Below are positions 10,784-13,270 of a stretch of 64,000 bases of DNA, piece by piece. The first letter of the stretch is position 1. Each line of letters opens with the position of its first letter. Where the stretch lies: the NCBI GenBank assembly GCA_905236005.1, contig CAJONJ010000039.1:2612-66611 (forward strand). Direction: 5' to 3'. This DNA is from an uncultured Alphaproteobacteria bacterium (GTDB lineage: Bacteria; Pseudomonadota; Alphaproteobacteria; Rs-D84). The notes below the pieces were generated by a model. The model had not been told where the DNA came from. It ran no database searches and saw only the letters and a program-made list of their open reading frames with translations. The position numbers and the translations under genes were made by a program.

Positions 10784-10860
10784 CGCGGGATAGAGCAGCC
10801 CGGTAGCTCGTCAGGCTCATAACCTGAAGGTCGGTGGTTCAAATCCATCTCCCGCAACCA
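10784..10860 (+). tRNA. initiator tRNA-fMet (anticodon CAT)
   Basis: Cloverleaf with the C1:A72 mismatch diagnostic of bacterial initiators. Three G:C pairs in the anticodon stem, anticodon loop CUCAUAA, and encoded CCA. Near-identical in layout to E. coli tRNA-fMet. Confidence 0.9.
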
Positions 10861-10871
10861 GAGCTTCAAAA

Positions 10872-10903
10872 CTTGCCCATCGGGGCAAGTTTTTGTTTGT
10901 TTT
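10872..10903 (+). terminator. intrinsic terminator after tRNA-fMet
   Basis: CTTGCCC-ATCG-GGGCAAG hairpin followed by TTTTTGTTTGTTTT. Confidence 0.65.
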
Positions 10904-10919
10904 CCAATATCTACAAAAA

Positions 10920-10969
10920 GTTCGAAAGTTGTCTTTTTGAAAAAGGCTATTTTTCTACTACTTTTGAAC
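10920..10969. repeat. about 50-nt dispersed repeat with 9-bp imperfect terminal inverted repeats (GTTCGAAAG...CTTTTGAAC), copy 1
   Basis: Aligns with the copies at 11854-11903 and 13222-13270. All three share GTTCGAAAGT, a central TTTnAAAAAnGC block and a terminal CTTTTGAAC. Confidence 0.5.
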
Positions 10970-11683
10970 CATAGAATTTTGTTTTTGTTGTAAAAGTATA
11001 TAATCTTTCATCATTTTTTGCACTGCACCCGGTAAATCTGTTTTAATTGCTTCTGGTGTTATATACTTATCAACAAACGGATTTATAAACTTTTCTTGAA
11101 TATGTATACCAAAAAATTTTATACCAATTAAGTCAACAATCCGTTCTTTGAAATTTTGTGGAACATTATATTTTTCAATTATTGGTTTTTCTATTAAAAT
11201 ATGAATAACTTCATGCAACATAGTATTCAATATCTTTTCTTGATTATCTGGATACCGTGACATACGAAATACAATTTTTGCTTTTTTATCAGATGCAAAA
11301 TACGAAGCACCATTACCATATGCACATAATATTTCTAATTCATTTGGCATTGTCGTGTTCCACGATTTTAACAAAGGAACCAAAAACTTACTTATTCCAC
11401 GTTCCATCATCGGTATAACATAAGATTTCATAATTGAATCGTATTTTGTTAAATCATTAACGTTATAAATTTCTTGTTTGAAAAATTTACTATATTTTGC
11501 TATGTCTTTGTCAGTAAGAGTTTCTTTTTCAAACATTTCTTTGACTATTGGATTCTCGGGATTTGGAACAAAATTATTCATTGTATATCCAAAATGTTTT
11601 AAATTGGTATGAAACTCATGATGCTCTTCTAAAATAAATTGCCACATTTCTTTTTGGGTCATCGGTCTTATTGTTATTTGCAT
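10958..11683 (-). CDS. hypothetical protein with HEXXH motif (putative zinc metallopeptidase-like), 241 aa
   Basis: Intact ORF containing MLHEVIHILIE. Lies inside the tRNA-flanked islet. Confidence 0.4.
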   Translation of the reverse strand: MQITIRPMTQKEMWQFILEEHHEFHTNLKHFGYTMNNFVPNPENPIVKEMFEKETLTDKDIAKYSKFFKQEIYNVNDLTKYDSIMKSYVIPMMERGISKFLVPLLKSWNTTMPNELEILCAYGNGASYFASDKKAKIVFRMSRYPDNQEKILNTMLHEVIHILIEKPIIEKYNVPQNFKERIVDLIGIKFFGIHIQEKFINPFVDKYITPEAIKTDLPGAVQKMMKDYILLQQKQNSMVQK

Positions 11684-11762
11684 ATTAAATCCTTTTTATA
11701 CTGATAATTATATCATAAACTTGTTTTTAAAATCTATTATTTCCTGTCTAACATCCAACAAC

Positions 11763-11828
11763 TCGACTCGAGAACTGCACACACTGCACAACCAGAATTT
11801 ACAAAACCGTCCATAAGGGCGGTTTTTT
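11763..11828 (+). ncRNA. candidate small RNA or repeat unit (TCGACTCGAGAACTGCACAC...) ending in an intrinsic terminator, copy A
   Basis: About 40 nt are conserved with copy B at 13004-13072 (CTCGAGAACTGCACACnnnGCACAACCAgAATTTAACAAAA). Each copy is followed by its own hairpin plus T-run. No ORF. Confidence 0.25.
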
Positions 11829-11853
11829 ATTGGATTCTTAATACCTTCACAGA

Positions 11854-11903
11854 GTTCGAAAGTATAAGTTTCAAAAATGCACGTTTTTGTTCAACTTTTG
11901 AAC
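11854..11903. repeat. GTTCGAAAGT...CTTTTGAAC repeat, copy 2, overlapping the start of the transporter gene
   Basis: See copy 1. The ATG at 11877 lies inside the element. Confidence 0.5.
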
Positions 11904-12845
11904 TTTTTTGCAATTTGTTTCCTTTTATGCTACAATTCCTATGCTATGAATTTACTAGGTGTCTTGGTTTCTTTTATCAGTCCGATGGCATATGCAGTAT
12001 CAAATATCTTTGATGCGTATGTGTCTGGCAGTGTTTTCAAGCGTATTCCAACAACGATATTTTATGTAAACCTGACCAACATTCTGGGGATTCTATGTTT
12101 GCCACTGTTCGGGTCAATTCATTCTTTGTCGCCAGCTGCGTGGTTGTTTGTGTTGTTATCGTCCATCATAAATGTTGGGTACCAGTTTCCGTATTTTGCC
12201 GCATTAAATAAAACAGACACATCGGTGGTGGTGGCTCTGTTTCAATTGAAAAAGGTCTTTATACCATTGTGGGCTTTTTTGATTGTTGGCGAAGTTTTAC
12301 ATCCGGTTCAATATGCCGGGTTTGGTATCATAATCTTGTTTTCATTGCTGCTGAATATAAATCCAAAGGCAAATATAAAAATCAATGCTGGGTTTTGGTT
12401 GATGTGTCTGACGGCTATAATACTGTCGTTTGAGGGTGCTTTCTACAAGGCATTACTGGAACATACAGATTGGGTGTCGGCGGCATTCTGGGTGTCGGTT
12501 ATATCTTTTGTTGTCCAATTCATGATGATATTCTGTCGTCCAGTACGCAAAGATATTGTTAAAAACTTTGGCAAATATCGCAAAAAGTTCGGTATGTTTT
12601 TGTTTGTGGAATTCTTTGATCAATTGGGATCATTCAGTCCTATATTCGCACTGTCGTTGATTCCGGTTCTGGTTGATTCTGGGATTCAATCGGTTCAGCC
12701 GATTTTTGTTGTGCTTTATGGTGTAATCTTGGCACGATTTTTCGGCAAGCGATTCCACGAAGACATTTCTAGCGGCACGATGATTAAAAAGATAGTTTGT
12801 TTCGTTATGATTGGTGCCGGTGTAATGATGACATTGATATCATAA
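11877..12845 (+). CDS. DMT-superfamily (EamA-like) membrane transporter, about 10 TM
   Basis: 322 aa, polytopic, two-repeat hydrophobic architecture. The true start is possibly the downstream Met (MNLLGVL). Confidence 0.5.
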   Translation: MHVFVQLLNFFAICFLLCYNSYAMNLLGVLVSFISPMAYAVSNIFDAYVSGSVFKRIPTTIFYVNLTNILGILCLPLFGSIHSLSPAAWLFVLLSSIINVGYQFPYFAALNKTDTSVVVALFQLKKVFIPLWAFLIVGEVLHPVQYAGFGIIILFSLLLNINPKANIKINAGFWLMCLTAIILSFEGAFYKALLEHTDWVSAAFWVSVISFVVQFMMIFCRPVRKDIVKNFGKYRKKFGMFLFVEFFDQLGSFSPIFALSLIPVLVDSGIQSVQPIFVVLYGVILARFFGKRFHEDISSGTMIKKIVCFVMIGAGVMMTLIS

Positions 12846-13003
12846 ATTTAAACACAACATAAGTATTTTCTTCATATTTTAACCTTTGTTTTACAAGCAT
12901 GATAATACAACAAATCCTACCCTTTTTTCAAACCTATTATTTCAAATCTGCTAACCCTAATTTCTCTTTCAACGCATCAATCTCTTGACCTATTTCTAAT
13001 AAT

Positions 13004-13072
13004 TCGGCTCGAGAACTGCACACCGAGCACAACCAAGATTTAACAAAAAGCATCCATTGTGGATGTTTTTTT
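13004..13072 (+). ncRNA. candidate small RNA or repeat unit, copy B, with terminator CATCCATTGTGGATG plus T7
   Basis: See copy A. Lies downstream of the transporter gene. Confidence 0.25.
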
Positions 13073-13203
13073 GTTAAATATGTGTGTTGTGTTGGGTTTG
13101 AGCCACCAAAAAAGGTGGTTCACTACAAGCGAGAGCCAGACGGAAGTATGGCGGTCAACCTACAAGGTTGACGAGTGCAGTGAGGCAAAAATTTCATTTT
13201 TAC

Positions 13204-13218
13204 CAAATCCATCTCCCG
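13204..13218 (+). repeat. 15-nt direct repeat of the tRNA-fMet 3' end (CAAATCCATCTCCCG); putative distal att site
   Basis: Exact 15-mer match to tRNA positions 10840-10854, 2.36 kb downstream in the same orientation. Confidence 0.4.
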
Positions 13219-13221
13219 TAA

Positions 13222-13270
13222 AGTTGAAAGTTTGATTTTAAAAAATACGATTTTTATAGTGCTTTTGAAC
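13222..13270. repeat. GTTCGAAAGT...CTTTTGAAC repeat, copy 3 (AGTTGAAAGT variant)
   Basis: See copy 1. Immediately follows the att-like repeat and overlaps the 3' end of the 13254 gene. Confidence 0.45.

What the first reader, a model, noticed from the sequence alone, without database searches (positions are those of the whole stretch)
10784..13270. Initiator tRNA-fMet with a 15-nt 3'-end direct repeat 2.36 kb downstream: remnant integration islet
The last 15 nt of the tRNA-fMet T-arm/acceptor (CAAATCCATCTCCCG, 10840-10854) recur exactly at 13204-13218 in direct orientation. This is the classic signature of site-specific integration into a tRNA 3' end (attL/attR). The intervening 2.4 kb carries no integrase. 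It holds an HEXXH-motif hypothetical protein, a DMT/EamA transporter, two sRNA-like repeat units and three copies of a TIR-like 50-nt repeat. This suggests a decayed mobile islet. The accessory region continues beyond it to virB3 at about 25.3 kb.
Basis: seen in the sequence. Interest (0 to 1): 0.55.

Follow-up and report, generated by a model that had tools for sequence, protein, structure and literature searches.

The report
Integrase-less gene-cassette array at tRNA-fMet
The repeated 15 bases are real, but they are one scar inside a string of small swappable one-gene cassettes attached to the end of the initiator tRNA gene of an uncultured small-genome gut bacterium (Candidatus Enterousia), an integron-like arrangement with no visible recombinase that I did not find described in the literature.

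Summary
CAAATCCATCTCCCG occurs exactly twice in the window, at 10840-10854 in tRNA-fMet and at 13204-13218.

The "single decayed islet" reading is only partly right. The locus is an array of discrete units, each ending in the hexamer CAACCA:
- tRNA
- HEXXH cassette (10861-11794)
- EamA cassette (11795-13035)
- "X", a 183-nt structured unit without an ORF (13036-13218)
- a degraded 197-aa cassette (13219 to about 13850)

The second 15-mer is X's terminal copy of the tRNA 3' end. It stops at CCCG because about 64 nt, including CAACCA, were deleted there.

About 40 related loci from Candidatus Enterousia and relatives (gut and rumen) carry the same junction module. They hold 1 to 6 or more cassettes of 0.4-4 kb, with about 99 cargo families and no recombinase. 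The same cassettes appear in different orders, and at tRNA-Gln as well as tRNA-fMet. Their boundaries always fall at CAACCA. The cassettes are 95-98% identical between genomes whose flanks are 81.5% identical.

The best explanation is site-specific, integron-like cassette exchange by an unidentified recombinase encoded elsewhere. No integrase lies within 82 kb of the array. Each cassette's right arm also carries a conserved 26-40-codon reading frame. X has hairpins supported by covariation.

The parts
10742..10769 (+). Sigma-70-type promoter of tRNA-fMet (TTGACA-16-TATAAT, 12 of 12 positions)
10784..10860 (+). tRNA-fMet (anticodon CAT). Its 3' end ...TCCCGCAACCA is the first attachment site of the array.
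10840..10854 (+).
10855..10860 (+). Core CAACCA no. 1, the junction between the tRNA and cassette 1
10861..11794 (+). Cassette 1 (934 nt). Left arm: hairpin/terminator T1 at 10868-10893 and inverted-repeat unit A1 at 10919-10970. Cargo: 241-aa HEXXH protein at 10958-11683(-). Right arm: 11725-11794, ending in core CAACCA at 11789-11794.
11711..11794 (-). Conserved short reading frame in the right arm of cassette 1 (WLCSVCSSRVELLDVRQEIIDFKNKFMI, stop codon at 11708-11710)
11795..13035 (+). Cassette 2 (1241 nt). Left arm: T1 hairpin at 11807-11822 and unit A2 at 11853-11904. Own promoter TTGCAA-17-TACAAT at 11908-11936. Cargo: EamA transporter at 11877(or 11946)-12845(+). Right arm: 12966-13035, ending in core CAACCA at 13030-13035.
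12940..13035 (-). Conserved short reading frame in the right arm of cassette 2 (WLCSVCSSRAELLEIGQEIDALKEKLGLADLK, followed by two stop codons)
13036..13218 (+). X module, with no ORF and 41.5% GC. It contains a terminator-like hairpin (13051-13065), an inverted copy of the tRNA 3' end (GTTGTG 13086-13091, TGGGTTT 13093-13099), hairpin H1 (13100-13107 with 13114-13121), H2 (13135-13152) and H3 (13154-13172). It ends in the direct copy of the tRNA 3' end, truncated after CCCG.
13204..13218 (+).
13219..13850 (+). Degraded cassette 4. Unit A3 lies at 13219-13271 and a 197-aa ORF at 13254-13847(-). Homologues of this ORF are regular cassettes in L038 and L026. Here the right arm is lost and the 701-aa gene abuts directly.

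Best explanation
The locus is an integron-like array of small mobile gene cassettes inserted one after another at the 3' end of the initiator tRNA gene.

Every unit ends in CAACCA. That hexamer is also the last six bases of the tRNA (acceptor end, discriminator base, CCA). A typical cassette is about 0.9 kb and reads, left to right:
- an optional left arm, made of an intrinsic-terminator hairpin about 12 nt after CAACCA and a roughly 52-nt inverted-repeat unit;
- one or a few cargo genes in either orientation, some with their own promoter;
- a roughly 70-nt right arm. Its last 35 nt (AATTCGGCTCGRGAACTGCACACNNNGCACAACCA) are almost invariant. Its distal part carries a conserved short reading frame on the opposite strand.

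Shown by comparison: units are discrete; they are delimited at CAACCA; they occupy different positions and orders in different genomes and sit at two different tRNA genes; and they are far more similar between genomes than the surrounding chromosome.

Inferred: units are excised and inserted by site-specific recombination whose crossover lies in or at CAACCA. The recombinase would be encoded elsewhere in the genome or on a helper element. Gene conversion or homologous exchange among the similar junctions then blurs the arms. Cassettes move between strains by transformation, conjugation or phage.

X is built from an inverted and a direct copy of the tRNA 3' end enclosing hairpins supported by covariation. 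It is normally the first unit after the tRNA. In this genome two cassettes have been inserted between the tRNA and X, and a later 64-nt deletion removed X's CAACCA.
For: The junction module is conserved across species:
- 6 GTDB genomes of Candidatus Enterousia and other Alphaproteobacteria MAGs carry it, as do 30 metagenome loci.
- A profile built from 51 distinct junctions maps arrays of 1 to 6 or more units. Nearly all start at tRNA-Met(CAT) and one starts at tRNA-Gln(CTG).
- In the 64-kb window the module occurs only at 10.85-13.12 kb.

Boundaries fall at CAACCA:
- High-identity blocks shared by different arrays begin 5-19 nt before and end 0-13 nt after the end of CAACCA.
- At tRNA-Gln the left arm begins at the same nucleotide as at tRNA-fMet.
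- A cassette with no left arm (CAACCA|AATCATTTC...) follows three different upstream cassettes in L043, L049 and L038.
- L047 equals L035 plus two extra cassettes between the tRNA and a block that is 99.3% identical.

Order is shuffled. The window reads tRNA|HEXXH|EamA|X. L001 reads tRNA|X|EamA|HEXXH. L023 reads tRNA|EamA+Fic|X|HEXXH. L039 reads tRNA|X|..|X|HEXXH.

Transfer is recent. Flanks are 81.5% identical over 9.8 kb, against 98.4% for the EamA cassette and 95.5% for the HEXXH cassette. Those two proteins are 100% identical where the flanking DUF374 protein is 87-90% identical.

Cargo is diverse. 136 ORFs fall into 99 clusters, including EamA, GNAT, NADAR, HD, Fic, kinases, peptidases, methyltransferases and an outer-membrane beta-barrel. 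None of the cargo proteins scanned is a recombinase.

There are 43 gene cassettes of 405-4016 nt and 12 X-type units of 182-219 nt.

X in L001 is flanked by a perfect 20-nt repeat of the tRNA end. The end of X always matches the local tRNA variant.
Against: - No recombinase has been identified. There is none in the window, none in scaffold positions 22-104 kb, and none among the cargo or neighbouring ORFs scanned in the related loci. The central mechanistic step is therefore inferred.
- No conserved inverted repeat flanks CAACCA, and nothing is conserved immediately to its right. This is unusual for a simple tyrosine-recombinase core.
- The right arm has no conserved fold, so the site does not resemble an integron attC hairpin.
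- The terminator-plus-spacer segment (+1 to +58) and the 35 nt next to CAACCA are not strictly linked to the cargo. One junction (L023, 10923) has a chimeric hairpin. This shows that homologous exchange or gene conversion also acts here.
- All the data come from metagenome assemblies. No circular intermediate or empty tRNA site was observed.
Confidence: 0.7

Rival explanations
1. A single mobile element once integrated into the 3' end of tRNA-fMet and left attL and attR as the two 15-mers. The 2.4 kb between them is its decayed, integrase-less remnant.
For: The repeat is exact, direct, and derived from the tRNA 3' end. In L001 a perfect 20-nt repeat of the tRNA end flanks X.
Against: - The interval contains two further CAACCA junctions and three units that occur separately and in other orders elsewhere.
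- The repeat belongs to X, which in most genomes lies directly next to the tRNA with nothing in between.
- A fourth cassette lies beyond the supposed attR.
- The cassettes are nearly identical across genomes whose flanks have diverged, so they are not decayed.
Confidence: 0.04
2. There is no dedicated recombinase. The roughly 200-nt junction modules are simply conserved repeats (terminators and regulatory sites). Cassettes are swapped, deleted and reordered by RecA-dependent homologous recombination between them after DNA uptake, as with the 'minimal mobile elements' of Neisseria.
For: - Junction segments reassort independently of the cargo, and one chimeric hairpin is seen.
- No recombinase was found.
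- The junctions are long and similar enough for homologous exchange.
Against: - The same left-arm start nucleotide follows tRNA-fMet, tRNA-Gln, the end of X and the ordinary right arm. These share only CNCAACCA plus weak T-loop similarity.
- A cassette with no left arm at all still begins exactly after CAACCA in three contexts.
- Homologous recombination between direct repeats deletes or replaces DNA. It does not readily create new orders or insert at a second tRNA.
- The 35 nt next to CAACCA are invariant at all codon positions, as expected for a protein-binding site.
Confidence: 0.17
3. The cassettes move as single-stranded DNA or through an RNA-guided reaction rather than by a classical tyrosine integrase. 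One version is a HUH/Y1 transposase of the IS200/IS605 type, which inserts 3' of a short specific sequence. The other is a recombinase guided by the structured X element, which carries sequence complementary to the tRNA 3' end.
For: - Insertion is always 3' of a fixed hexamer, with nothing conserved to its right.
- Hairpins lie close to most left ends.
- X has hairpins supported by covariation, strand-specific G-U pairs, and an inverted copy of the target sequence that tracks the local tRNA variant.
Against: - No HUH, IS110-type or other such gene was found near any array.
- The right arm has no hairpin, and some cassettes lack the left hairpin.
- Nothing shows that X is transcribed. No promoter is evident, and a terminator separates X from the tRNA.
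Confidence: 0.08

Closest known systems
Integrons, including sedentary chromosomal integrons and CALINs (clusters of attC sites lacking an integrase)
   Same: - Arrays of many small, mostly single-gene cassettes (median about 0.9 kb).
- Very diverse, mostly accessory cargo.
- A short conserved core at each boundary.
- ORF-less cassettes occur.
- The same cassettes appear in different orders in related genomes.
- As in CALINs, no integrase is adjacent.
   Different: - There is no intI, attI or Pc platform. The array starts at a tRNA gene.
- The core is CAACCA, not GTTRRRY.
- The recombination arm is a sequence-conserved stretch of about 35 nt with no conserved hairpin. It is not a structure-conserved attC.
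- Cargo lies in both orientations (27 on the minus strand, 16 on the plus strand), with its own terminators and sometimes its own promoter.
- Every right arm carries a conserved short reading frame.
tRNA-targeting integrative elements in tandem arrays, for example the tycheposons and island remnants of Prochlorococcus (bioRxiv 10.1101/2020.12.28.424599), and cis-mobilisable integrase-less elements (CIMEs) of Streptococcus (the latter from my own knowledge)
   Same: - Insertion is at a tRNA 3' end.
- Partial tRNA copies separate successive elements.
- Newcomers push older ones outward.
- This is the main flexible-gene hotspot in a streamlined genome.
- Integrase-less units are flanked by att sites.
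   Different: - The units here are about 1 kb and carry a single gene. They have no integration or replication module at all.
- None of about 40 loci shows a complete integrase-bearing element.
- Most units carry only CAACCA plus a specialised non-tRNA arm rather than a roughly 40-nt tRNA copy.
- Only X carries a true tRNA-end copy.
IS200/IS605-type elements and their non-autonomous derivatives (from my own knowledge)
   Same: Insertion is 3' of a short specific sequence, with no inverted terminal repeats. Hairpins lie near the ends. Non-autonomous copies are mobilised by an enzyme encoded elsewhere.
   Different: - No TnpA gene was found.
- The right end has no hairpin.
- The elements accumulate in tandem at one locus instead of dispersing.
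- Their cargo is ordinary accessory genes.

Membership tests
Integron | An intI tyrosine-recombinase gene adjacent to the array | tested here: not met
   No Phage_integrase or other recombinase domain was found in the window, in scaffold positions 22-104 kb, or among the ORFs scanned in about 40 related loci.
Integron | attC sites: imperfect inverted repeats (R''-L''...L'-R') that fold as hairpins, with the crossover in GTTRRRY | tested here: not met
   The boundary core is CAACCA. The right arm has no conserved fold on either strand (alifold -1.0 and -5.1 kcal/mol). The roughly 52-nt palindromic unit lies about 60 nt inside the cassette and is absent from some cassettes. IntegronFinder's attC model was not available to run.
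Integron | An array of small mobile cassettes, each with one recombination site, reshuffled between genomes | tested here: met
   There are 43 gene cassettes of 405-4016 nt in arrays of up to 6 or more units. Identical cassettes occur at different positions.
tRNA-integrated genomic island or integrative element | A direct repeat of the tRNA 3' end bounding the inserted DNA | tested here: met
   The repeat is 15 nt in the window and 20 nt around X in L001. Most cassettes, however, share only CAACCA with the tRNA.
tRNA-integrated genomic island or integrative element | A cognate integrase encoded within the element | tested here: not met
   Searches found no integrase in any of the cassette-borne proteins scanned, which were drawn from 99 cargo clusters.
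Integrase-less cis-mobilisable elements (CIME-type accretion) | att sites identical to those of a co-resident helper element whose integrase acts on them | not testable with these tools
   No helper was found.
IS200/IS605-derived non-autonomous elements | Subterminal hairpins at both ends and a Y1 (HUH) TnpA in the genome | tested here: inconclusive
   A hairpin is present at the left end of most cassettes but absent in some. The right end has none. No TnpA was seen. A TnpB gene occurs only on the phage contig.
Rfam RNA families (for X and the repeat units) | A match to a curated covariance model | tested here: not met
   Only the tRNA matches. Nothing matches X or the junction units, even at E-values up to 10.

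The most novel reading that the evidence does not exclude
The array is the product of a previously unrecognised recombination system. In it, the structured X element specifies the target for a recombinase encoded elsewhere. X would act either as an RNA or as folded single-stranded DNA that rebuilds the tRNA 3'-end duplex from an inverted and a direct copy. That would make it a structure-guided or RNA-guided counterpart of the integron platform, using a tRNA gene as the docking site. The conserved short peptide encoded in every cassette arm would be a functional part of the system.
Probability: 0.12. Interest if true: 0.9.

Novelty: new variant of a known kind. Interest (0 to 1): 0.72.

Why it matters
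Candidatus Enterousia (order Rs-D84) has genomes of 0.75-1.0 Mb and apparently depends on partner organisms (PMC12306168). In such a genome one hotspot that collects and exchanges dozens of single-gene modules may be the main route to accessory functions. The modules seen here include transporters, acetyltransferases, kinases, peptidases, surface proteins and Fic, NADAR and HD enzymes.

Mechanistically, the locus combines features of two known kinds of system: the cassette logic of integrons and the tRNA-end docking of integrative elements. It does so without an adjacent integrase and without attC hairpins. It also has two unexplained conserved parts, the arm-encoded peptide and the structured X element. 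Identifying the enzyme could reveal a new site-specific recombination system with a short, simple target (CNCAACCA).

The finding also gives a direct handle for recovering the flexible gene pool of an uncultured gut lineage. That pool could be amplified by PCR between the tRNA and the conserved junction arms.

Tried and rejected
- Permuted tmRNA or another known RNA for X and the repeat units: ARAGORN and Rfam found nothing.
- The roughly 52-nt inverted-repeat unit as an attC-like crossover site: rejected. Boundaries lie about 60 nt away at CAACCA, and some cassettes lack the unit.
- Crossover in the loop of the terminator hairpin: rejected as the general rule. Hairpins are almost always matched although two hairpin types coexist within arrays. 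Only one chimera was seen.
- The arm peptide as the C-terminus of a larger 'master' gene such as an integrase overlapping its attP: a search of 1.84 billion representative proteins found only 16 short junction-spanning ORF calls with the peptide at their C-terminus, plus one weak internal match in an unrelated 1307-aa protein.
- Fusion of the peptide to the neighbouring gene at array ends: not seen.
- Coding on the other strand: those frames contain stop codons (and direct reading of the sequence).
- A dif/Xer-like site: only a GTTAAAT or ATTTAAC heptamer resemblance in some X units. I judged this to be chance.
- A recombinase among the unknown ORFs at 13.2-22.5 kb: Pfam, PHROGs and NCBIfam gave none.
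- A temperate phage carrying the att site and an integrase: viral scans found one tailed-phage contig that carries part of X plus a cassette. No integrase was recognised in about 43.5 of its 47 kb; the tail-module ORFs were not scanned.
- GC content as an island marker: uninformative.
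Full report
**1. The observation**

ARAGORN and Rfam place a tRNA-Met(CAT) at 10784-10860 on the + strand. It has the unpaired first acceptor position typical of bacterial initiator tRNA. The 15-mer CAAATCCATCTCCCG occurs exactly at 10840-10854 and 13204-13218, both on the + strand. It occurs nowhere else in the 64 kb, even with two mismatches allowed. Chance expectation is 0.05 matches.

- ORF 10958-11683(-) has no Pfam family but contains HEVIH.
- ORF 11877-12845(+) is an EamA transporter.
- Two units of the form CTCGAGAACTGCACAC...CAACCA plus a hairpin are present, as are three roughly 52-nt inverted-repeat units AGTTCGAAAGT...CTTTTGAAC.

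**2. What the repeats are**

Aligning the three intergenic regions showed that the 'sRNA-like' unit ends in ...GCACAACCA followed by a terminator hairpin. This mirrors the tRNA end ...CCCGCAACCA and its own terminator.

A look-up of the exact EamA protein returned more than 20 metagenome contigs. One, L002, is the same strain as the window at 99.99% identity. The others carry the same gene among different neighbours.

In L001 the order is tRNA | X | EamA | HEXXH. Here X is the roughly 185-nt sequence that lies at 13036-13218 in the window. In L001 it is flanked by a perfect 20-nt repeat, AAATCCATCTCCCGCAACCA. The L001 flank is only 81.5% identical to the window over 9.8 kb. The EamA unit is 98.4% identical and the HEXXH unit 95.5%. 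Both proteins are 100% identical in genomes whose neighbouring DUF374 protein is 87-90% identical.

**3. Generality**

A degenerate pattern spanning one junction found six genomes in the GTDB collection. They are labelled Candidatus Enterousia or uncultured Alphaproteobacteria from gut and rumen. Three further hits in high-GC genomes are chance matches. A right-arm pattern found 30 loci in JGI metagenomes.

A profile built from 51 distinct junctions maps arrays of one to at least six units. Nearly all start at tRNA-Met(CAT). One (L011) starts at tRNA-Gln(CTG), whose 3' end is ...GCCCCAACCA. In the window the profile hits only 10853-13123. The module is therefore not a dispersed repeat in the 64 kb examined.

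The host lineage is order Rs-D84. Its genomes are 0.75-1.0 Mb, from animal guts (PMC12306168).

**4. Anatomy of a unit**

Every unit ends in CAACCA. Blocks of 90% identity or more that are shared by different arrays start 5-19 nt before a CAACCA end and finish 0-13 nt after the next one.

To the left of each CAACCA is a right arm of about 70 nt. To the right there is usually a left arm belonging to the next unit. It consists of:
- about 12 nt of linker;
- a GC-rich hairpin followed by a T run, which occurs in two alternative sequence versions with compensatory changes;
- about 25 nt of spacer;
- the roughly 52-nt inverted-repeat unit.

The left arm is optional. One cassette, with a 196-aa ORF on the minus strand, begins CAACCA|AATCATTTC... 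with no hairpin and no inverted-repeat unit. It follows three different upstream cassettes in L043, L049 and L038. L047 equals L035 plus two extra cassettes between the tRNA and a block that is 99.3% identical.

Among 55 complete units, 12 are X-type (182-219 nt) and 43 are gene cassettes of 405-4016 nt, with a median near 930 nt. The cargo lies on either strand, 27 on the minus strand and 16 on the plus strand. The 136 ORFs fall into 99 clusters. Those scanned include EamA, GNAT, NADAR, HD, Fic, APH-type and protein kinases, S8 and M55 peptidases, methyltransferases, an acyltransferase, an outer-membrane beta-barrel, LicD with an aminotransferase, and a radical-SAM enzyme with a hydrolase. 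None is a recombinase.

**5. The window re-read**

The array reads as follows:
- tRNA (10784-10860)
- cassette 1, HEXXH (10861-11794)
- cassette 2, EamA (11795-13035)
- X (13036-13218)
- cassette 4 remnant (13219 to about 13850)

The 197-aa ORF at 13254-13847 has homologues of 49-55% identity. Those are ordinary cassettes in L038 and L026, and the inverted-repeat unit of the L038 copy matches A3.

Compared with those cassettes and with X elsewhere, the window lacks CAACCA, the hairpin and the spacer (about 64 nt) between ...CCCG and A3. The right arm of cassette 4 is also gone, and the 701-aa gene abuts it directly.

The genes from 13.85 to 25.3 kb (701 aa, 296 aa, 1580 aa, 204 aa, VirB4, VirB3) have homologues next to the arrays of other species: L009, L013, L021, L026, L029, L033 and L035. 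They carry no junction sequences. I read them as conserved neighbourhood rather than island.

GC content does not mark the cassettes. They range from 0.25 to 0.37, against 0.34 for the flanks.

**6. The recombination site**

Only CNCAACCA is common to tRNA-fMet, tRNA-Gln, the end of X and the ordinary right arm. Nothing is conserved immediately to the right of it.

The 27 nt of the right arm next to CAACCA are invariant at all three codon positions, apart from one NNN triplet. Further out, variability has a period of three. Mean entropies are 0.96, 0.70 and 1.29 bits for codon positions 1, 2 and 3 of the minus-strand frame.

That frame reads WLCSVCSSRAELLEIG(R/Q)EIDxLKDKLGL... and stops after 26-40 codons in most of the 54 distinct arms. 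The pN/pS ratio is 0.59. The only other frame with a similar ratio shares its third positions and contains stop codons.

A full scan of 1.84 billion representative proteins found 17 matches. Sixteen are short gene calls that span junctions, with unrelated N-termini and the peptide always at the C-terminus. The seventeenth is a weak (44% identity) internal match in a 1307-aa protein, probably unrelated. No longer protein ends in the peptide. No canonical start codon or ribosome-binding site precedes the peptide, apart from an invariant TTG at codon 2 and GTG at codon 5 (and direct reading of the sequence).

I conclude that the inner 35 nt is a DNA site. The outer part has been under protein-level selection, but I cannot say how or when it is translated. 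The arm has no conserved secondary structure.

**7. The X element**

It begins with a terminator-like hairpin. It then contains an inverted copy of the tRNA 3' end (GTTGTG.TGGGTTTGAGCCACC), a loop, a direct copy of the T-arm start (GGTGGTTCA), about 80-90 nt of insert, and the direct copy AAATCCATCTCCCGCAACCA.

The terminal copy follows the local tRNA variant. One X-like unit (L045) ends in the tRNA-Gln 3' end.

On 13 sequences the two insert hairpins are paired in 100% of cells. Five of six pairs in each hairpin show changes on both sides. The covariation score is 0.302 against 0.136 in shuffles (0 of 500 shuffles reached the observed value), and against at most 0.10 when the pairing partners are slid. 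G-U pairs lie on the + strand. Rfam has no match.

X lies next to the tRNA in most arrays. It is internal in the window and L023, and L039 has a second, internal copy. It therefore behaves as a unit of the array. It could be a docking site, a remnant attachment region, or a small RNA. The data do not decide.

**8. Mechanism**

Several observations argue for site-specific recombination at or within CAACCA:
- the boundaries are precise;
- cassettes use two tRNA genes;
- one cassette lacks a left arm yet keeps the same boundary;
- the order of units is shuffled;
- cassette identity and flank identity are far apart.

The recombinase was not found. It is absent from the window and from the scaffold between 22 and 104 kb. 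It was not found among the ORFs scanned in the related loci. It must act from elsewhere, or from a helper element.

Homologous exchange also acts on the junctions. The hairpin-plus-spacer segment and the inner 35 nt of the right arm are not strictly linked to the cargo, and one hairpin is chimeric. I therefore keep a recombination-by-homology-only model as the main rival, at 0.17. A single-strand or guide-based reaction is a minor one.

**9. A possible vehicle**

A scan of viral contigs for the tRNA-end 20-mer found one relevant hit, L063. It lies on a 47-kb, 35% GC tailed-phage contig encoding terminase, portal, capsid, DnaB, TnpB and an intein-bearing methylase.

Between an NT5C-like gene and the tail-fibre region it carries:
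- the last roughly 55 nt of X;
- the tRNA-end copy with CAACCA;
- a full left arm;
- the same GNAT cassette family seen in L011 and L043;
- NADAR and RgpF genes.

No integrase was recognised in the 43.5 kb examined; the remaining tail-module ORFs were listed but not scanned. Related phages lack the insert in the regions fetched. This suggests that phages can carry cassettes between strains. It does not identify the enzyme.

**10. Comparison and novelty**

The system works like an integron in several ways: an array of small cassettes, one site per cassette, diverse cargo, ORF-less cassettes and reshuffling. It fails the tests for membership. It has no intI, attI or Pc platform. Its core is not GTTRRRY. 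It has no attC fold.

It also resembles tandem accretion of elements at tRNA genes, as described for tycheposon islands (10.1101/2020.12.28.424599). Here, however, the units are single genes with no integration module.

Full-text searches found no description of such arrays in Enterousia or elsewhere. I rate it a new variant of a known kind, with two unexplained conserved components: the arm peptide and X.

Noticed in passing
L063 13372-14100, with L068-L070 (contig IMGVR_UViG_3300033463_010496): A 47-kb tailed-phage contig (terminase, portal, capsid, DnaB, GC 35%) carries the last roughly 55 nt of X, the tRNA-end copy, CAACCA, a full left arm and a GNAT cassette of the family found in bacterial arrays. 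NADAR and RgpF genes follow. This block lies between an NT5C-like gene and the tail-fibre region. No integrase was recognised in 43.5 of 47 kb; the tail-module ORFs were not scanned.
   Followed up: partly
L068 11664-12869 and 13388-15700: The same phage encodes a TnpB (IS605 OrfB / Cas12f-like) protein with no TnpA seen. It also encodes a C5 cytosine methyltransferase interrupted by an intein with a LAGLIDADG homing endonuclease.
   Followed up: no
window 22474-27543 compared with L001 17706-20969: The block YchF-SufBD-VirB3-VirB4 is inverted relative to the tRNA array between the window and L001. In L001, heptose and sugar-nucleotide genes follow the array instead of the 197/701/296/1580/204-aa genes. 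One end of this rearrangement coincides with the distal end of the array.
   Followed up: partly
window 17003-21745 (-): A 1580-aa protein has an N-terminal M48/HtpX-like HEXXH motif and a central UbiB-kinase-like region. It lies in the lowest-GC stretch of the window (22-29%). Homologues of 38-40% identity lie next to the arrays in L033 and L035, beside the VirB genes. It may be a secreted effector.
   Followed up: no
L011 (tRNA-Gln at 1776-1849, minus strand) and L045 (oriented coordinates 793-978): A second docking site exists. An array starts at tRNA-Gln(CTG), and an X-like unit elsewhere ends in the tRNA-Gln 3' end (CCAGTTGCCCCAACCA). The GNAT cassette at tRNA-Gln is 91% identical to one in a tRNA-fMet array (L043).
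   Followed up: partly
L023 10924-10960: A junction hairpin is chimeric. Its left half is of the CCGTCC type and its right half of the GGGCAAG type, so the stem is broken. This is direct evidence that exchange sometimes occurs inside the junction, not only at CAACCA.
   Followed up: no
window 11908-11948: The EamA cassette has its own promoter, TTGCAA-17-TACAAT, preceded by TG. The in-frame ATG at 11946 lies only about 10 nt downstream of the -10 element, so the mRNA may be leaderless or nearly so. The longer ORF start at 11877 lies inside the inverted-repeat unit.
   Followed up: no
L051 17128-19458 (scaffold positions about 100-102 kb, roughly 60 kb from the array): parB, parA and gidB lie about 60 kb from the array, and gidA is in the window at 44644-46299. 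The cassette array is therefore probably close to the replication origin.
   Followed up: no
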